This document shows positions 939 through 7,355 of a stretch of 8,274 bases of DNA, piece by piece; positions within the stretch are counted from its first letter, which is position 1; the number at the start of each line of letters is the position of its first letter. Position numbers and translations under genes: made by a program. The stretch lies in the IMG/VR virus record IMGVR_UViG_3300014523_000046. One strand, 5' to 3'. The notes under the pieces were generated by a model that was not told the origin of the DNA, did not search any database, and saw only the letters and a program-made list of their open reading frames with translations. Origin of the DNA: a virus. Taxonomy: Duplodnaviria; Heunggongvirae; Uroviricota; Caudoviricetes.

Positions 939-1193
939 TCACTTTCTTAAATCTAACGATAGACGGCTAACATTTAAGTATTGTGAAATATTATCAAATG
1001 TAATCATCATTGATTTACAAAAGATACATTTTGCCCCGAAAGGATTCCTGTCAGAAACATCAAAAGATGATGTTCTATACTGAGAACCATGGCAACACGG
1101 GCATCTAAAGTGAATATGGTTTGTAATATTATCTACCTCAAAGTGCCACAACATGAACAGCCGCGGGGCCTTTAGGTCCGTTCTCAATACCAA
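939..1193 (-). CDS. Candidate small Cys-rich (zinc-ribbon-like) protein, start uncertain
   Basis: ORF contains C-P-C-C ... 21 aa ... C-I-F-C (CxCC...CxxC), a pattern unusual for a random ORF, and ends 8 nt before a terminator hairpin. The codon at 1193 is TTG with AGGAAG 7 nt upstream; the first ATG is at 1154. Either start overlaps the 3' end of the cspI-like gene (stop 1138) in another frame, which lowers confidence. Confidence 0.3.
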
Positions 1194-1350
1194 ATTCGAC
1201 TTCCTGATTCTCAGTTAACGTTTTGAAATCGTTGCTCTGAATAGCTGAGAAATGGACAAACACATCTTTGCTACCATCTTTCGGCGTGATGAAACCAAAA
1301 CCTTTTTCAGGGTTAAACCATTTCACTAAACCAGTCATTTTGTTAGACAT
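1138..1350 (-). CDS. cspI: Cold-shock protein, CspA family (CspI-like, 70 aa)
   Basis: Translation [70 protein letters not shown] carries the RNP1/RNP2 cold-shock-domain motifs (KGFGFI, VFVHF). Two tandem ATGs at 1353 and 1350; the second gives the canonical MSNKMTGL N-terminus. AAAGGTAATA SD-like sequence upstream, typical of csp genes. Stop TGA 1138-1140. Confidence 0.9.
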
Positions 1351-1353
1351 CAT

Positions 1354-1713
1354 TATTACCTTTTGAAGAAGTTAGCCCTTGGGCAGAATGGTCCGAAAAA
1401 AAATATCAGAGAGAAAAACCAACAAGGAAATCTCAAGAGGTACAAATAATAAAATTATAACAATGACTGCTTCAGATAATTTTGTAACAAACCAGAACAC
1501 CATTAACGCATGATTAACCAACCATAGCAAGGATTACTTTTGTAAAGAAAAACACACGAATGAAACAATAGCTTTATTTATTAATAAAACGTGTCATTCT
1601 GTCTAATGACCTTTTATCTTACCCTTAAGATTTCAAGGATTTTGACTCATGGAAGAGTCCTTTTTATTTAAATTTCACATTCAGCGCTAAAAATAATCCG
1701 ATTTAATATTAAT
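1354..1713 (-). promoter_or_regulatory. AT-rich upstream region of the cspI-like gene (promoter plus probable long 5' UTR)
   Basis: A 360-bp non-coding AT-rich gap between the Rz stop (1714) and the csp start. CspA-family genes characteristically have long structured 5' UTRs. I did not locate an exact cold-box match by eye. Confidence 0.4.
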
Positions 1714-2854: not shown

Positions 2855-3115
2855 ATGGATTACACAAATCTACCTAAACAAACTTTTGCTGATTTAATCG
2901 CACTCAGGCAAGCAGTCGTAGCTCTAATCAACTTGTTGCCGGAGAAGGAAAAGGAATTAGTTAAAGCGCTTCTTAACAGAACTGCCGCCGATTTTTCATC
3001 ATATCCACTGACAGATGACCTTGCGGACCTTCCTGAATTAATTGCAGCGTCCGCCAATAAGCTTACTGAAGAGATTTACCCTCCTCAAAAATCTTCACAA
3101 AATTCCTGCGAGTAA
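2855..3115 (+). CDS. Candidate small acidic protein (86 aa), convergent with and overlapping the 3' end of the DUF1327-like gene
   Basis: ATG at 2855 preceded by AGAGG at about 6 nt spacing. Lies in the 320-bp gap between the endolysin start and the upstream gene. Its 3' end overlaps the minus-strand gene by about 53 nt. No recognisable family. Confidence 0.25.
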   Translation: MDYTNLPKQTFADLIALRQAVVALINLLPEKEKELVKALLNRTAADFSSYPLTDDLADLPELIAASANKLTEEIYPPQKSSQNSCE

Positions 3116-3614
3116 CTTCAATGCAATAATCGTAAAACGCCGCAAACTGCTCATCGCGGCGTTTTTTTTCATCTTCAGAAGGAATCAGCACCGACAATTT
3201 TTTATTCAGATCAGCGACGCTGCCCTCCAGTTTTTCAATGGGCGATTCAATATCATCTTTTTCTGACCGCAATGCCGTCGGTGGCGTCTTCAGAGAACCA
3301 GTAATTCTTCCCGGTAGCTTTCCTTTGTAGGTTATCCACACATTCTGCGCCTCTAAAATTATGGGGCGCTTTTCCGGCGACTGCTCATCCCCTTCACATA
3401 ACCCGGCAGCAACATCCAGGAAGACCTGTCTGATGCTCCTTCTGGCTGCTGCCTCATAAAACTCCAGCGCGGCACCTTCAACACGGTCCAGCGAGATGTC
3501 CAGGTCAAAAATTTCACCGTCAAAGTGTTTTTTGTCCCGTAAGGCTACAGTTACCGCCACTTTATTCTCAAAATTGCGAACTCCTTTCACAACCAGTTCA
3601 TAGTCTTGAGTCAT
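3063..3614 (-). CDS. DUF1327 (YdfR-like) prophage protein with about 100-aa C-terminal extension (183 aa)
   Basis: N-terminal about 80 aa (MTQDYELVVKGVRNFENKV...DGEIFDLDISLDRVEGAALEFYEAAARRS) match my recollection of the YdfR/DUF1327 family that sits between holin and endolysin in Qin-like prophages. The track ORF begins at a TTG (3635); the first ATG is at 3614, just after the holin stop. Stop TAA 3063-3065. Confidence 0.65.
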   Translation of the reverse strand: MTQDYELVVKGVRNFENKVAVTVALRDKKHFDGEIFDLDISLDRVEGAALEFYEAAARRSIRQVFLDVAAGLCEGDEQSPEKRPIILEAQNVWITYKGKLPGRITGSLKTPPTALRSEKDDIESPIEKLEGSVADLNKKLSVLIPSEDEKKRRDEQFAAFYDYCIEVTRRNFVKIFEEGKSLQ

Positions 3615-3618
3615 TGGA

Positions 3619-3834
3619 TTACTCTCTTCTCGCAACCTTACGCCTGTCTTCTTTAATCTTGAAATAAAGGTTTGTCAGATACGTCAGCATGCCAAATACC
3701 AGACTACCCAATACACCTATTGCCGCCCACTGTGAGGGCGTGACTTTATCGAGCAACTGTAAAAACCAGTAGCCAGCACTGCCTGCAGAGGTGCTGTAGG
3801 CGATGCCCGTTGTTAACTTATCCATGGATTTCAT
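3619..3834 (-). CDS. Class II holin, phage-21 S-like pinholin (71 aa) with dual-start motif
   Basis: Within track ORF 3619-3918, ATG at 3834 with strong SD (GGAGGTGAGGCT-ATG) gives [71 protein letters not shown]: two TM segments, a charged C-terminus, and the MKSM dual start (Met1/Met4) typical of S21. Confidence 0.9.
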
Positions 3835-3924
3835 AGCCTCACCTCCGCAGATAACGGATGGTGTACACGGTTTGGTTCGAAGAAGGAAAGAAGTTACATT
3901 AGCGTAAGGCCCGAACATCTATTC

Positions 3925-3956
3925 AAAAAGAAAAACGCCAGCAATTATTCTGGCGT
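3925..3956 (-). terminator. Intrinsic terminator downstream of the AraC-like gene
   Basis: Perfect 7-bp stem ACGCCAG/CTGGCGT (3935-3941 and 3950-3956) with an 8-nt loop; on the minus strand it is followed by TTTTTCTTTTT (plus 3925-3934). About 70 nt past the AraC stop (4025). Confidence 0.55.
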
Positions 3957-4024
3957 AGCTAAAAATATCGTATAATCTTACACTTCAAAAAATAACTTTA
4001 TAAAATGCCATCACATCATATCTT

Positions 4025-4738
4025 CTAAGAAAATCTTGATAAATATTGGTGCGGAGGCACACCAAAATATCCTCTAAAAACACTTACAAAATATGATGCA
4101 TTGTCATACCCGCATATTCCCGCCACCTTGCCGACAGTATGGTTACTGTAGATCAATAATCTTTGCGCCATCATCATTCGTTCTTCAAGAATTAATTTAC
4201 TAAACGATAATCCTTCGTTTTTTAATTTTCTTTTTAACAAACTCTCGCTCATATATAATCTTGAAGATATATCACAAAGTCTCCATGACGCTGAGATATC
4301 CGAGTGAATAATAGCCTTAACTTTACAACCTAAGCTATTAAGACTTCCGAACAAAAAACTTTGCACTATTTTCTCTGAAGATAAGACAGCAAGACATGCA
4401 AGTGATATTTGATTTCTAACTACATCCACGGTTTTGCTATCACAATTCAAGCATGCAACCAAGTTCCTTAACAATGAAAAATCTTCACATTCTACTATCA
4501 AGTATGACGGATAAAACCTTCTTACAGAAAAAGGTGAGAGTGTGTAGTTTTTAAAGAAATCATTAACTGTTTTCTCCTCAACATCTACGATCATTAGATG
4601 ATCTGTATTTGACGAAAAAAGATCTTTTAAATTGTATTCAATGAGGACAGCATTTCCTTTTTTAAACAAAATATCTTCTTTACCAATTCGGACAACAAAC
4701 GAGTTCAACACCAAAATGATAGAACATATGTATGGCAT
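4025..4738 (-). CDS. AraC/XylS-family transcriptional regulator (237 aa), AT-rich horizontally acquired type
   Basis: C-terminal about 100 aa carry the double helix-turn-helix of AraC/XylS proteins (...SESLLKRKLKNEGLSFSKLILEERMMMAQRLL...VGKVAGICGYDNASYFVSVFRGYFGVPPHQY). The N-terminal domain is not recognisable. The codon at 4747 is GTG and lies inside the SD; ATG at 4738 with AGGTGG 5 nt upstream is the likely start. Very low GC compared with the lysis genes. Confidence 0.85.
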   Translation of the reverse strand: MPYICSIILVLNSFVVRIGKEDILFKKGNAVLIEYNLKDLFSSNTDHLMIVDVEEKTVNDFFKNYTLSPFSVRRFYPSYLIVECEDFSLLRNLVACLNCDSKTVDVVRNQISLACLAVLSSEKIVQSFLFGSLNSLGCKVKAIIHSDISASWRLCDISSRLYMSESLLKRKLKNEGLSFSKLILEERMMMAQRLLIYSNHTVGKVAGICGYDNASYFVSVFRGYFGVPPHQYLSRFS

Positions 4739-5144
4739 ATTATCCACCTGATATCATTGGGGTTACACCAGGTAAGTATAGGTGGAAAATCAATATTCGC
4801 CAGTTCAACAATAAGGAAAATCTCATTGCATCACAACTATAAAACCATGTGTTTAACTCACAAAAAACAAATCATTAAACTAATCTGTTATATTATAATA
4901 GCTGCGTGCAATAATAATATTATATGCTCTTAATATTCACTTGAAATATCTTCATATAAAAACAGATTGAATAAAATCTTTTGGGGCTGGTATGTTTACC
5001 AACATTAAATTGCATCTCAATGTTTTCTTTAGCGTGAACAGGATTTTTATACAAACTGACACTATGGGCATCATAGCGTAGTTTTTACGATTGTAAATAT
5101 CCTGCATACAGGAACTCATCACTTTCAGATGATATCGCATACAG
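4739..5144 (-). promoter_or_regulatory. AT-rich intergenic region upstream of the AraC-like gene (probable promoter and silencing region)
   Basis: About 400 bp of strongly AT-rich non-coding sequence with many A/T tracts, between the DUF523/DUF1722 stop and the AraC start. The only ORF here (4952-5140) looks spurious. Typical of xenogeneic promoter regions; no specific hexamers assigned. Confidence 0.35.
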
Positions 5145-6104
5145 TTAATTCACCATCAGTCTTAGAGCCAGTTCTTCCGGATAGGGATCGAAGTAATTCT
5201 GTGTAAGCAAGTAATCATTAGGATACTCACCCAGATAATGCTTCAGCAGAGTCAACGGCGCAAGAAGAGGCAATGTGCCAAAGCGATAGTTAAGTATAAC
5301 CTCGCTCAACTCTTTACGCTGGCGTGTACTTAAGTAATTACTAAAATACCCCTGTATATGCATCAGCACATTCGTGTGATTTTTACGTGATGCTGGTTTT
5401 CTGAGAATCGCCATCAGATTATCACGATACACCTCAAAGTATGATTCAAGGTCCGCCCACTCGTGTATTGCAGCCACAAATGGTCCCATATCTTTATAGC
5501 CTGCCTGGCTATGCGCCAACAACTGAAGCTTATAACGACTATGAAAAGCTAATAACTCTCTTCTTGATAATTTCTCCTTGTAAAGATGATTGAGCTCATG
5601 CAAAGCAAAAACTCTTTCAATAAAATTCTCACGAAGCACTGGATCATGTAATCGCCCATCCTCTTCAACCGGTAGCCAGGAAAACTTTTCCATCAAAGTG
5701 CTCGTAAATAGTCCCACTCCATCTTTACGACCTCGATTACCATTTTCATCATAGACACGCACGCGCTCCATGCCACAGCTGGGAGATTTAGCACAAACCA
5801 CAAACCCCGATACATCCTTTAATTTGTCCATATAAGAACGACTAAACTCTGTCATTCTCTCTGTCACATCCTCATTCTGGTCGTGGCTGAAACACATCCG
5901 TATATTTCCTTGCTTCGAGCGCACAAGTCGTAGAGCAGGACGCGGAACTGGCAGCCCTATAGCCATTTCCGGACATACTGGTCTGAATGTTACCCATTCC
6001 ACTAATTTGTCCATTAAAAAGTCATCTCTTTTGTGACCACCATCAAAACGAACAGCAGAACCGCCCAAACAACCGCTGATCCCAATCACAGGTTTTTTTA
6101 TCAT
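5145..6104 (-). CDS. DUF523 (TudS-like Fe-S) + DUF1722 (YbgA-like) fusion protein (319 aa)
   Basis: N-terminus MIKKPVIGISGCLGGSAVRFDGGH with Cys at about 12, 44 and 104 (SPSCG) matches the three-Cys [4Fe-4S] ligand pattern of DUF523/TudS-type proteins. The C-terminal half is helical and YbgA/DUF1722-like. ATG at 6104 preceded by AAGGGGGAGGAA. Stop TAA 5145-5147. Confidence 0.8.
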   Translation of the reverse strand: MIKKPVIGISGCLGGSAVRFDGGHKRDDFLMDKLVEWVTFRPVCPEMAIGLPVPRPALRLVRSKQGNIRMCFSHDQNEDVTERMTEFSRSYMDKLKDVSGFVVCAKSPSCGMERVRVYDENGNRGRKDGVGLFTSTLMEKFSWLPVEEDGRLHDPVLRENFIERVFALHELNHLYKEKLSRRELLAFHSRYKLQLLAHSQAGYKDMGPFVAAIHEWADLESYFEVYRDNLMAILRKPASRKNHTNVLMHIQGYFSNYLSTRQRKELSEVILNYRFGTLPLLAPLTLLKHYLGEYPNDYLLTQNYFDPYPEELALRLMVN

Positions 6105-6296
6105 TTCCTCCCCCTTGACTAATTCATTAACACATAAACTTTGTAGTGCACGGACTAAATTGCCTTTCTGGCTTCATCACTGACAATTTTTCTGTTATTG
6201 ACTATTCCTAATATAGTAGGAAAGTTCTTTAAGTGATCGGTCGTACTCATCTATCTTTCATACTTACTCTCAACTATCAAAAGTACAGGATTTATT

Positions 6297-6821
6297 ATGA
6301 AGTTATGGCCTGTGTTGACTGGCATTGCACTCTCTTTCACTCTTATAGCATGTAAGGCCCCGACACCACCTAAAGGTGTGCAGCCGATTACAAATTTTGA
6401 CGCCAACCGCTACCTCGGAAAATGGTATGAAATAGCTCGCCTCGAGAACTGGTTCGAACGTGGTCTGGAACAGGTCAGCGCTACTTATGAAAAACGGAAC
6501 GACGGAGGGATTCGCGTACTTAACCGTGGATACGATCCAACGAAAAACAAATGGAGCGAGAGCGAAGGTAAAGCATACTTTACTGGAGATACTAAAACTG
6601 CAGCGTTGAAAGTTTCGTTTTTTGGCCCCTTCTATGGTGGCTATAATGTAATCAAGCTGGATGATGAGTATAAGTATGCTCTTGTCAGTGGTCCGAACAG
6701 AGAATACCTATGGATTCTGGCAAGGACCCAAACTATTCCAGATAATGTAAAAGCAGACTATGTGCGTACCGCTCAAAAGTTGGGATTCAATGTCAATGAA
6801 CTATTATGGGTTAAACAATAA
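6297..6821 (+). CDS. Bacterial lipocalin Blc-like outer-membrane lipoprotein (174 aa)
   Basis: Signal peptide with lipobox L-I-A-C (MKLWPVLTGIALSFTLIACKAPTPPKG) and lipocalin core motifs shared with Blc (NFDANRYLGKWYEIAR, KVSFFGPFYGGYNVI, YLWILAR). SD AGGA 6 nt before the ATG. Plus strand, opposite to the surrounding phage genes. Confidence 0.9.
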   Translation: MKLWPVLTGIALSFTLIACKAPTPPKGVQPITNFDANRYLGKWYEIARLENWFERGLEQVSATYEKRNDGGIRVLNRGYDPTKNKWSESEGKAYFTGDTKTAALKVSFFGPFYGGYNVIKLDDEYKYALVSGPNREYLWILARTQTIPDNVKADYVRTAQKLGFNVNELLWVKQ

Positions 6822-6849
6822 AATCCCCACCCGAAATGATACTTATTAG

Positions 6850-6877
6850 AAAAAAAACCAGCCTTTGGGGAGGCTGG
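6850..6877 (-). terminator. Intrinsic terminator downstream of Q (tR'-like); may also serve the convergent blc-like gene
   Basis: Perfect 7-bp stem CCAGCCT/AGGCTGG (6858-6864 and 6871-6877) with a 6-nt loop; on the minus strand it is followed by an 8-T run (plus A-run 6850-6857). Located about 100 nt downstream of the Q stop and 37 nt after the blc-like stop. Confidence 0.65.
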
Positions 6878-6879
6878 CT

Positions 6880-6977
6880 AAATCAGGAAACAAGCTGTTA
6901 TATGATAATAACTACGTTGCGATTCCAACATTTAAAATGTTAGACTAATGAAAATCAGACAGCAACTTTTCCTTTAA
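6880..6977 (-). promoter_or_regulatory. Candidate late promoter / Q-utilisation region between Q and the terminator
   Basis: By analogy with lambdoid pR'-qut-tR' organisation. Minus-strand hexamers TTGCTG (6965-6960) and TAACAT (6942-6937) with 17-bp spacing are one possible -35/-10 pair, which would predict a short transcript of about 80 nt. The assignment is speculative. Confidence 0.3.
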
Positions 6978-7355
6978 TTATTTCGAACAATCAGCATCCA
7001 TCTCCAATCGGAGATCCAACACCATCAGCATGCCCTCCACTACGCCCTCAGCTTTCTGGAGCATCCTGCCAACCCAACAATCAGATCGCCCATGCTTACG
7101 TGCAAGCGCCATAAAAGTCATGCCGCCGACATAATAGTCCACCAATAAATCATGTAAATCGCTGTTGTTTTTTTTCAGGCGAGCCATACATTCACAAATG
7201 ATCATCGCGTCATCGTCACAGCATTGCGGACGAGATCTTACTTTTGAAGGAATTAATCCCTTAAAACCGGCGGCAATGGACGACCAGGTCACATCTTCAT
7301 GATTATTAGCCGCCCATGCCCCCCAACGCTCAAGAACCATCTGAATATCACGCAT
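6978..7355 (-). CDS. Phage antitermination protein Q, short QuuD-like type (125 aa)
   Basis: Translation from ATG 7355 ([26 protein letters not shown]...[32 protein letters not shown]) matches my recollection of the approximately 127-aa Q-like antiterminators of DLP12-type prophages (Phage_antitermQ family). The track start at 7370 is a TTG; ATG 7355 has GGAG 8 nt upstream. Followed by a terminator, as expected for Q. Confidence 0.8.

What the first reader, a model, noticed from the sequence alone, without database searches (positions are those of the whole stretch)
3919..6849. About 3 kb cargo cassette inserted between the Q terminator and the holin
In lambdoid phages the interval between Q/tR' and S is the classic site for lysogenic-conversion cargo (where stx, bor and tRNA genes sit). 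Here it holds three non-phage genes: a Blc-like lipocalin on the opposite strand, a DUF523+DUF1722 fusion, and an AraC-family regulator. They are markedly more AT-rich than the flanking Q and lysis genes, and the AraC gene has its own terminator. This combination in a late region is not one I recognise as described. Late transcription would read through the cassette on induction, sense to two genes and antisense to the lipocalin.
Basis: partly seen in the sequence, partly recalled or inferred. Interest (0 to 1): 0.7.

Follow-up and report, generated by a model that had tools for sequence, protein, structure and literature searches.

The report
Stress-gene cargo in lambdoid prophage
Between the late-gene activator Q and the lysis genes of this E. 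coli prophage sits a common, already catalogued three-gene cargo (a lipocalin lipoprotein, the tRNA 4-thiouridine eraser RudS and an acid-stress-type AraC regulator), so it is real but ordinary.

Summary
On the late (minus) strand the order is Q, a short leader ending in a strong terminator (tR'), a Blc-type lipocalin (plus strand), a DUF523+DUF1722 protein, an AraC-type regulator with its own terminator, then the S21-type holin.

The window is a Qin-like prophage of E. coli. The cassette matches 1154 of 5426 complete E. coli genomes, sits in different lambdoid backbones, and occurs in deposited phages (1H12, IdasGreatGrand).

It is not undescribed. blc was listed as a frequent lambda moron in 2020. 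The middle gene is 92% identical to RudS_vir of phage 1H12, shown in 2024 to strip 4-thiouridine from tRNA. The regulator is 47-48% identical to PatE and PsrA, prophage activators of acid resistance; psrA also lies in a Q-to-S interval.

New here: blc and rudS were probably captured together. In Enterobacter, Leclercia, Serratia and Cedecea the closest homologues form blc <-> merR(MlrA-like)-(transthyretin-like)-rudS, or a longer operon with furan-fatty-acid-type genes. The phage copy lacks the MerR gene. The AT-rich araC part looks like a separate addition.

All three genes are under purifying selection. This is a known cargo in a classic hot spot. Interest is low to moderate.

The parts
6978..7355 (-). 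Antiterminator Q (QuuD/933W-type), the upstream anchor of the cargo site
   Evidence: PF06530, 8e-51. 97% aa identity to Q of phage 1H12. Distant match to the Q21 structure 6P18. About 75% nt identity to Q of 933W.
6880..6977 (-). Q-to-terminator leader that should hold pR' and the Q-loading site. One candidate is TTGCTG-17-TAACAT at 6965-6937. The promoter is not resolved.
   Evidence: Read from the sequence. 87-95% invariant across four cassette types. The consensus scan found no strong sigma-70 site here.
6848..6879 (-). tR'-like intrinsic terminator (9-bp GC-rich stem, U8)
   Evidence: leader fold -20.7 kcal/mol, z = -4.4. Invariant in all variants. On the + strand the same hairpin follows blc but has no U-tract.
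6297..6821 (+). Blc-type outer-membrane lipocalin lipoprotein of the 'Blc2' clade, antisense to late transcription
   Evidence: Lipocalin_2 and NCBIfam Blc above cut-off. Lipobox LIAC, with Cys19. PDB Blc 1QWD/2ACO/3MBT at E about 1e-65. 96% identity to 1H12 gp65. dN/dS 0.06-0.16.
6105..6296 (.). Divergent blc<->rudS control region. It holds a perfect palindrome TTCCTA-N6-TAGGAA at 6205-6222 and a CATACTTA -10-like box for blc.
   Evidence: 80-98% invariant across variants. The blc-proximal half aligns with the merR-blc intergenic region of the chromosomal modules (AATATAcTAcGAA and CTACACTTA boxes). The rudS-proximal part aligns weakly with the chromosomal rudS promoter region. The palindrome occurs once in the window but is not significant on its own.
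5145..6104 (-). RudS: TudS(DUF523)-DUF1722 tRNA 4-thiouridine desulfidase
   Evidence: Pfam. 92% identity to RudS_vir, 1H12 gp66. Cys12/Cys44/Cys110, Glu46, Ser107/Ser109 and Arg55 are present (sequence read against PMC11417400). dN/dS 0.10-0.19.
4739..5144 (.). Variable AT-rich spacer (31.5% GC) with indels between cassette types. It contains an 85% copy (4882-4907) of the pR' leader segment 6892-6917.
4025..4738 (-). AraC/XylS-family regulator of the PatE/PsrA/PsrB (GadX/YdeO-like) group
   Evidence: HTH_18 and HTH_AraC. Best NCBIfam matches are YdeO, HilD and GadX, all far below their cut-offs. 47% identity to PatE over the full length. 48% identity to PsrA over 160 aa. 76% identity to 1H12 gp67. 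dN/dS 0.22-0.27.
3935..3956 (-). Intrinsic-terminator-like hairpin plus U-run after the AraC gene
   Evidence: -11.3 kcal/mol.
3619..3834 (-). S21-type class II holin (essQ/essD), the downstream anchor of the cargo site
   Evidence: PF04971. RefSeq annotation. Similarity to cassette-free prophages resumes at about 3863.

Best explanation
The region is a composite moron (lysogenic-conversion) cassette in the Q-to-S hot spot of a Qin-like lambdoid prophage. It has two modules.

Module 1 is the divergent pair blc<->rudS. It was captured from an enterobacterial chromosome. There, a Blc2-clade lipocalin gene is transcribed divergently from a MerR/MlrA-like regulator gene. That regulator heads an operon ending in rudS, often alongside furan-fatty-acid-type lipid-modification genes, which suggests a light or photo-oxidative stress unit. 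The phage copy has lost the MerR gene and the transthyretin-like gene. It keeps the divergent control region.

RudS removes the sulfur of 4-thiouridine-8 in tRNA. E. coli has no chromosomal RudS, only the DUF1722-only YbgA. The inference is that lysogens gain relief from near-UV growth delay.

The lipocalin is an outer-membrane lipoprotein. It is inferred to bind damaged or lyso-lipids.

Module 2 is an AT-rich AraC-type regulator related to PatE and PsrA/PsrB. It is inferred to switch on host acid-stress genes (gadE/hdeA type).

Shown here: gene identities, anatomy, distribution, purifying selection and the chromosomal module. Inferred: expression from the genes' own promoters in the lysogen; Q-driven read-through on induction (sense to rudS and araC, antisense to blc); and the phenotypes.
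For: Identity and anatomy.

Distribution:
- Matches in 1154 of 5426 complete E. coli genomes, 883 of them covering at least 80% of the query.
- The 64%-coverage class also keeps a diverged araC.
- The same trio sits in Qin-like and in DLP12/lambda-like backbones.
- It is present in the deposited phages 1H12 and IdasGreatGrand.

Alternative cargo at the same site.

RudS:
- 92% identical to RudS_vir, with all catalytic residues.
- RudS_vir lowered tRNA s4U in E. coli. Overexpressed RudS genes diminished UVA growth delay (PMC11417400).

Regulator: 47-48% identical to PatE and PsrA, which activate gadE/hdeA.

Origin:
- The closest non-phage Blc (78-80% identity) always lies beside merR-(TTR)-rudS (L020-L022, L026-L029). 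Serratia has blc<->merR-rudS. Cedecea has the long operon.
- The canonical Blc (56-61% identity) has no such neighbours.
- Lipocalin genes sit in singlet-oxygen regulons elsewhere (PMC11832516). DUF1365 is UfaO (PMC7380195).

Composite nature: GC is 33% for araC against 43-44% for blc and rudS. No araC relative lies near the chromosomal modules. PatE-type genes sit alone at other phage sites.

Selection: dN/dS is 0.06-0.27, similar to Q and the holin.
Against: - No expression or phenotype data exist for this cassette in a lysogen.
- Consensus scans gave no convincing promoter for blc or rudS. The intergenic homologies are weak, at about 60% identity.
- RudS_vir was less active than other RudS enzymes despite good protein levels.
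- The donor lineage is not identified. The nearest homologues are only 70-80% identical.
- If the lost MerR is an activator, as MlrA is, rudS may be silent in lysogens.
- IS insertions and truncations in the cassette are frequent. That fits weak selection in some lineages.
- The regulator's targets are extrapolated from homologues with 47-48% identity.
Confidence: 0.75

Rival explanations
1. The genes serve the phage's own lytic cycle rather than the lysogen. They lie directly behind pR', so rudS and araC would be made at high level after Q antitermination. RudS would clear photosensitive s4U from tRNA, so that late-protein synthesis proceeds in a UV-damaged, SOS-induced cell. Antisense transcription would switch blc off.
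For: - The position is immediately downstream of Q and tR', sense to late transcription for rudS and araC.
- The cassette is kept in viable phages.
- Neither a clear promoter nor the native regulator for rudS is present.
- s4U is the near-UV sensor that stalls translation (PMC11417400).
Against: - Related phages do without it and carry unrelated cargo at this site, so it is dispensable for lytic growth.
- blc is antisense and has a conserved upstream region of its own.
- Desulfuration would not repair tRNA that is already cross-linked (inference).
- PatE/Psr homologues act in the lysogenic state.
Confidence: 0.15
2. The cassette is hitch-hiking, decaying DNA in a cryptic prophage and has no current function.
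For: - Many copies carry IS3, IS1 or IS2 insertions. The E. coli B lineage has rudS cut to 49 codons.
- The native regulator has been lost.
Against: - Intact ORFs occur in four sequence types that differ by up to 13% in DNA.
- dN/dS is 0.06-0.27, as low as for Q and the holin.
- The cassette is present in plaque-forming phages.
- All catalytic residues of RudS are retained.
Confidence: 0.05
3. The cassette is an anti-phage defence or superinfection-exclusion module. For example, the lipoprotein could block a receptor, as Cor and Llp do, or tRNA editing could counter tRNA-targeting systems.
For: - Prophage hot spots often carry defence genes.
- Blc is an outer-membrane lipoprotein.
- Sister phages carry a porin at this site.
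Against: - None of the proteins matches a PADLOC family.
- The phage Blc and RudS are about 70-80% identical to their closest chromosomal homologues, which sit in a stress-type operon rather than in a defence island.
Confidence: 0.05

Closest known systems
blc-rudS_vir-araC cassette of Escherichia phage 1H12 (gp65-gp67; Jouyvirus) and its relatives Lambda_2E9, ev087 and IdasGreatGrand
   Same: Same three genes, order, orientation and position between a 97%-identical Q and the holin. Protein identity is 96% for Blc, 92% for RudS and 76% for AraC. gp66 is the RudS_vir tested in PMC11417400. blc was counted as a moron in these phages (PMC6969025).
   Different: The DNA is 87% identical overall. 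The 1H12 type lacks the roughly 79-nt segment that carries the pR'-leader-like repeat upstream of araC. The backbone is lambda-like rather than Qin-like.
Classic Q-to-S cargo of lambdoid phages: stx in 933W-type phages, the lc/nmpC porin, cspB/cspF of Qin, and psrA plus tRNA genes in O157 Sp4
   Same: Same insertion site, behind Q/pR'/tR' and ahead of S. The Q here is about 75% identical in DNA to Q933W. The porin cargo is also antisense to late transcription.
   Different: The gene content differs. Here the genes are stress-tolerance-type genes, not a toxin, porin or cold-shock genes.
PatE, PsrA and PsrB, the prophage AraC-like regulators of EHEC O157:H7
   Same: Prophage-borne, AT-rich, GadX/YdeO-like proteins. 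Identity is 47% to PatE over the full length and 48% to PsrA over 160 aa. psrA also lies in a Q-to-S interval.
   Different: Less than 50% identity, so the targets are not established. The host strains are mostly non-EHEC commensal or environmental E. coli. No effector or Pch genes were seen in the flanking prophage region that was inspected.
Chromosomal blc<->merR(MlrA-like)-(transthyretin-like)-rudS module of Enterobacter, Leclercia, Serratia and Cedecea, and the Pseudomonas phrB-litR-rudS light operons
   Same: Divergent blc/rudS architecture. Blc is 78-80% and RudS 70-75% identical. Boxes in the blc upstream region are shared. RudS genes are linked to light-responsive operons (PMC11417400).
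   Different: The phage copy has no MerR/MlrA-like regulator, no transthyretin-like gene and no lipid-modification genes. It is 43-44% GC and sits in a phage late operon.

Membership tests
RudS (TudS-DUF1722 tRNA s4U desulfidase) | N-terminal TudS/DUF523 domain fused to C-terminal DUF1722 | tested here: met
   PF04463 at residues 7-149 (5.8e-40) and PF08349 at residues 192-309 (9.4e-40).
RudS (TudS-DUF1722 tRNA s4U desulfidase) | Three Cys ligands of the [4Fe-4S] cluster, plus the catalytic Glu, two Ser and the orienting Arg | tested here: met
   Cys12, Cys44 and Cys110 sit at the positions listed for RudS_vir. Glu46, Ser107, Ser109 and Arg55 correspond to Glu51, Ser111, Ser113 and Arg60 of RudS_KT. 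Read from the alignment against Tables 1 and 2 of PMC11417400.
RudS (TudS-DUF1722 tRNA s4U desulfidase) | Removes s4U from tRNA in vivo | not testable with these tools
   Shown in the literature only for the 92%-identical RudS_vir.
Bacterial lipocalin Blc | Lipocalin_2 fold and a Blc-subfamily score above the curated cut-off | tested here: met
   PF08212, 7.5e-43. NF007786, 312.6 bits against a cut-off of 267. E. coli Blc structures at E about 1e-65.
Bacterial lipocalin Blc | Lipoprotein signal peptide with a lipobox, with a +2 residue compatible with the outer membrane | tested here: met
   The sequence reads MKLWPVLTGIALSFTLIAC-K. The lipobox is LIAC with Cys19, and the +2 residue is Lys, not Asp. 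Cys19 is invariant in 24 homologues.
AraC/XylS family, PatE/Psr (GadX/YdeO-like) subgroup | C-terminal double helix-turn-helix of AraC type | tested here: met
   HTH_18, 3.2e-16, and HTH_AraC, 4e-12.
AraC/XylS family, PatE/Psr (GadX/YdeO-like) subgroup | Full-length similarity to PatE/PsrA, including the N-terminal domain | tested here: met
   47% identity over 237 aa to PatE. 48% over 160 aa to PsrA. It does not reach the equivalog cut-offs for YdeO, GadX or HilD.
AraC/XylS family, PatE/Psr (GadX/YdeO-like) subgroup | Activates gadE/hdeA acid-resistance promoters | not testable with these tools
   Known for PatE and PsrB only (PMC10877973).
Phage moron (extra transcription unit between genes that are adjacent in relatives) | Sits between two conserved phage genes that carry other cargo, or none, in related phages | tested here: met
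   Breakpoints lie at the Q stop and at about 30 nt before the holin. Alternative cargo.
Phage moron (extra transcription unit between genes that are adjacent in relatives) | Base composition differs from the flanking phage genes | tested here: met
   38.2% GC against 47-50% in the flanks. The difference is strong for araC and the spacers and weak for blc and rudS.
Phage moron (extra transcription unit between genes that are adjacent in relatives) | Own promoter and terminator | tested here: inconclusive
   A terminator follows araC. The blc upstream boxes are conserved with the chromosomal homologues. No strong sigma-70 consensus was found for blc or rudS.
Lambdoid late control unit (Q, pR', tR') | Q gene followed by a short leader that ends in an intrinsic terminator | tested here: met
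   The position of the pR' promoter itself is not resolved.
Known anti-phage defence systems | Match to a PADLOC family | tested here: not met
   No hit at E <= 0.01 for any cassette protein.

The most novel reading that the evidence does not exclude
A regulator-less fragment of an enterobacterial light or photo-oxidative stress regulon (Blc2 lipocalin plus the tRNA s4U eraser RudS) has been domesticated by lambdoid phages and placed directly behind pR'. A prophage induced by sunlight or UV would then erase the host's near-UV sensor in tRNA and keep translating its late genes. Carriage of this cassette would also make about a fifth of E. coli strains RudS-positive, although the species is described as lacking RudS.
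Probability: 0.2. Interest if true: 0.55.

Novelty: already known. Interest (0 to 1): 0.25.

Why it matters
The Q-to-S site is where lambdoid phages carry toxins and other conversion genes, so its cargo shapes host phenotype. This cassette supplies RudS, an enzyme that the E. coli chromosome lacks, and it matches about 21% of complete E. coli genomes. That qualifies the published statement that E. coli has no RudS. It also matters for anyone measuring tRNA s4U or near-UV responses in natural isolates or in B-lineage strains. The link to a MerR-controlled blc-rudS module gives a testable role for the long-puzzling bacterial lipocalin in photo-oxidative or lipid stress. None of this changes the basic picture: this is a catalogued moron in a classic hot spot.

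Tried and rejected
- Rfam at permissive E-value and ARAGORN found no RNA family or tRNA gene in the cassette. Only the terminator gave a sub-threshold hit.
- PADLOC gave no hit.
- I tested whether the unannotated 175-aa protein or the DUF3833 protein of the Citrobacter rudS operon is a hidden lipocalin. There was no sequence similarity.
- I tried to define a MerR/MlrA-type operator and the promoters in the 192-bp blc-rudS spacer, by aligning it with chromosomal intergenic regions and by a palindrome search. Shared boxes exist. The identity is too low and the palindrome too likely by chance (68 of 200 shuffles) to call an operator.
- I could not place pR' with confidence. The consensus scan finds nothing strong between Q and tR'.
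- A match class covering only 64% of the query looked like an araC-less variant. It actually keeps a diverged araC. A place that seemed to lack Q has an IS3 inserted between blc and Q.
- The PatE paper (PMC3416394) is not held. A full-text hit for lipocalin + prophage + antiterminator + AraC was irrelevant.
- No donor species was identified. The best chromosomal homologues are 70-80% identical.
Full report
**What is in the window.** The window is the late-regulation and lysis region of a Qin-like lambdoid prophage of E. coli. The interval 3919-6977 is 100% identical to strain PSJ-07. There it lies in a full-length prophage next to rspB/ynfC, with integrase, replication, head and tail genes.

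Phage genes run on the minus strand:
- ydfU (DUF968)
- Q (PF06530), 6978-7355
- the cargo
- an S21-type holin, 3619-3834
- a ydfR-like gene, lysozyme, Rz/Rz1 and cspI

About 100 nt downstream of the Q stop codon is a canonical intrinsic terminator at 6879-6856 (9-bp stem, U8). This is the expected tR' of a short pR' leader. I could not place the promoter itself. One candidate is TTGCTG-17-TAACAT at 6965-6937, but it is weak.

**Observation check.**
- A Blc-type lipocalin on the plus strand (6297-6821). It has a lipobox (LIAC, Cys19) and scores above the NCBIfam Blc cut-off.
- A DUF523 + DUF1722 fusion (5145-6104, minus strand).
- An AraC-type regulator (4025-4738, minus strand), followed by a terminator-like hairpin at 3956-3935.

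Two corrections apply. First, the holin starts at 3834, not 3918. Similarity to prophages without the cassette resumes at about 3863 and, on the other side, ends at the Q stop codon. Second, the AT-richness is uneven. araC is 33% GC and the spacers are 32-37%. blc and rudS are 43-44%, against 46-52% for Q, the holin and the lysozyme.

**How common it is.** Megablast of the cassette matches 1154 of 5426 complete E. coli genomes. In 883 of them the match covers at least 80% of the query. The apparent araC-less class also keeps araC, in a more diverged form.

The trio occurs in different backbones: Qin-like here, and DLP12/lambda-like elsewhere. It also occurs in 12 deposited phage genomes, including 1H12 and its relatives from infant-gut E. 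coli, and IdasGreatGrand isolated from swamp mud.

Four sequence types differ by up to 13% in DNA. All keep the three ORFs intact. dN/dS is 0.06-0.16 for blc, 0.10-0.19 for rudS and 0.22-0.27 for araC, comparable to Q and the holin. IS3, IS1 and IS2 insertions are frequent. The E. coli B lineage keeps blc, but its rudS is truncated by IS3.

**It is cargo at a hot spot.** Sister phages 4A7 and Chlobot have a QuuD-type Q that is 85% identical in DNA. At the same place they carry an OmpD/NmpC-like porin, also antisense to late transcription. K-12 Qin has cspB/cspF there. O157 Sakai Sp4 has a CAAX-protease-like gene, psrA and three tRNA genes. The Q here is about 75% identical in DNA to the Q of Stx phage 933W.

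**What the genes are.**
- *Middle gene.* It is 92% identical to gp66 of phage 1H12. That protein is RudS_vir in Jamontas et al. 2024 (PMC11417400). When overexpressed in E. coli it lowered tRNA 4-thiouridine, as did every RudS tested. Overexpressed RudS genes diminished the UVA growth delay. The window protein has the three cluster cysteines (12, 44, 110) and the catalytic Glu46, Ser107, Ser109 and Arg55. The same paper states that E. coli lacks TudS and RudS and has only the DUF1722-only YbgA. NCBIfam agrees: the K-12 YbgA model matches only residues 161-315 of the window protein. This prophage gene therefore supplies an activity that the host chromosome lacks.
- *Regulator.* It is 47% identical over its full length to PatE and 48% identical to PsrA over 160 aa. 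These are prophage AraC-like proteins of O157:H7 that activate gadE and hdeA and indirectly repress type III secretion (PMC10877973). Related genes sit alone at the tail-fibre/integrase site of other phages and in OI-8.
- *Lipocalin.* It is a true Blc homologue. It is only about 59% identical to the canonical E. coli Blc.

**What I could add: a common origin for blc and rudS.** The closest non-E. coli homologues of the phage Blc (78-80% identity) and RudS (70-75% identity) are neighbours on chromosomes of other Enterobacterales.
- In Enterobacter mori, E. intestinihominis, Leclercia tamurae and several metagenome contigs, the arrangement is blc(+) <-> merR(-)-transthyretin-like(-)-rudS(-). E. 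sichuanensis has the same arrangement without a detected transthyretin-like gene.
- In Serratia rubidaea it is blc <-> merR-rudS.
- In Cedecea, blc faces a long operon: merR-SnoaL-SDR-amine oxidase-DUF1365-CFA-synthase-like-DUF2878-175 aa-DUF3833-rudS.

Among 80 blc loci, every Blc at 78% identity or more that had flanking sequence had merR and rudS beside it. The one exception is a 2.1-kb contig at 97% identity with no usable flanks. None of the canonical Blc loci at 56-61% identity did. Several distant lipocalins lie beside the CFA/DUF1365/amine-oxidase trio or beside rudS.

DUF1365 is UfaO and the amine-oxidase-like protein resembles UfaD. Both belong to the furan-fatty-acid pathway, which in Rhodobacter is encoded in an operon derepressed in chrR mutants (PMC7380195). 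A lipocalin gene is induced 165-fold in the RpoE-ChrR regulon of Stenotrophomonas (PMC11832516). RudS genes are reported in light-responsive operons. The MerR is a 40%-identical paralogue of E. coli MlrA with an almost identical recognition region.

The phage pair therefore looks like a condensed piece of a light or photo-oxidative stress unit that has lost its regulator. The 192-bp spacer is 80-98% invariant among phage variants. Its blc-proximal half shares boxes with the chromosomal merR-blc spacer, and its rudS-proximal part aligns weakly with the chromosomal rudS promoter region. These alignments are weak, and I treat the inferred deletion as probable, not shown.

**The cassette is composite.** araC differs in composition and evolves faster. 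It has no relatives near the chromosomal modules. It is separated from rudS by a variable, indel-rich spacer.

That spacer holds an 85% copy (4882-4907) of the conserved pR' leader segment 6892-6917. The similarity extends about 15 nt further, and the copy is absent from the 1H12 type. One reading is that the araC unit once lay directly behind a Q/pR' unit and was joined to blc-rudS by recombination between phages. Another is that the copy, which contains a perfect TATAAT, is an araC promoter. This is unresolved.

**How it most likely works.** In the lysogen, blc would be transcribed from its conserved upstream region. rudS and araC would be transcribed from weak promoters of their own or through host cross-talk. 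On induction, Q-modified polymerase would read through tR', rudS, araC and the araC terminator into the lysis genes. That transcription is sense to rudS and araC and antisense to blc.

The expected benefits are tolerance of near-UV (RudS), envelope or lipid protection (Blc2), and acid-stress priming (the regulator). Only the RudS activity has experimental support, and only for a 92%-identical orthologue that was overexpressed.

Rivals: a lytic-cycle helper role for RudS after UV induction (0.15), neutral hitch-hiking (0.05), and a defence or exclusion role (0.05; no PADLOC hit).

**Novelty.**
- Mathieu et al. 2020 listed blc as a moron in more than half of 19 infant-gut lambda phages (PMC6969025).
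- RudS_vir was characterised in 2024.
- The PatE/Psr regulators have been known since 2011-2012.
- All three proteins have PHROG families of unknown function.

I found no paper that describes the trio as a unit or links blc to rudS, and full-text coverage is partial. The element is already known. The shared origin of blc and rudS, and the loss of the regulator, are modest new points.

Noticed in passing
window 4882-4907 and 6892-6917: An 85% direct repeat. A segment of the conserved pR' leader, just upstream of the tR' hairpin, recurs upstream of the AraC gene, where it contains a perfect TATAAT. The second copy lies in a roughly 79-nt segment that the 1H12/L023 cassette type lacks. It could be a relic of a second Q/pR' junction or an araC promoter.
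   Followed up: partly
window 3063-3635 (-): The ydfR-like ORF is 190 aa: a DUF1327 N-terminus plus a long extension. It overlaps the holin stop by 17 nt. K-12 YdfR is 103 aa, and RefSeq annotates the identical sequence in PSJ-07 as a partial pseudogene.
   Followed up: no
window 2855-3115 (+): An 86-aa ORF antisense to the lysis genes, between the lysozyme and ydfR. It matches phrog_2572 over its full length (4e-53) and is annotated as hypothetical in RefSeq. It may be a small moron.
   Followed up: no
window 1092-1508 (-): A cspA-type thermoregulator leader (RF01766, 112.8 bits against a gathering score of 78) precedes the prophage cspI gene. Further cold-shock-like and Gns/YnfN-type small genes follow. 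This is a second cargo cluster downstream of Rz.
   Followed up: no
L014 (E. coli C41(DE3), NZ_CP010585) 5001-5864: The E. coli B lineage (BL21/C41) carries the same Qin-type Q and an identical phage blc, but rudS is cut to 49 codons by an IS3. BL21(DE3) was the host used for the published RudS s4U assays, so that host is rudS-negative but phage-blc-positive.
   Followed up: partly
E. coli genome hits H2-H7, H22-H25, H47, H56, H57; L012; L013: IS3, IS1 and IS2 elements are inserted again and again inside the cassette, especially in or near the AT-rich araC part and between blc and Q. The cassette is an IS target hot spot, and in one case a site of prophage rearrangement.
   Followed up: partly
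L025 (JARKOR010000135.1, 'Candidatus Nanosynbacter' MAG): A 2.1-kb contig binned into a Saccharibacteria MAG encodes a Blc 97% identical to the phage protein. This is almost certainly contamination from an E. coli prophage.
   Followed up: no
L009-L011 (Salmonella enterica and related contigs): A RudS homologue (73% identity) lies next to ttcA, beside integrase fragments and a DUF1367 phage gene. This looks like a second, independent association of rudS with a prophage remnant at the ttcA attachment site.
   Followed up: no
L016-L022, L026-L029, compared with L109 (K-12 mlrA): The regulator of the chromosomal blc-rudS module is a MerR protein with MlrA_helical and MlrA_C domains. It is 40% identical to E. 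coli MlrA, with a near-identical helix-turn-helix. Host MlrA might therefore cross-talk with the orphaned phage promoters.
   Followed up: partly
L107 (phage 4A7) 2845-3927; L108 (phage Chlobot) 2616-3773: In sister phages the first cargo gene after Q is a porin that is also antisense to late transcription, as blc is here. A convergent gene right after tR' seems to be a recurrent layout at this site.
   Followed up: no
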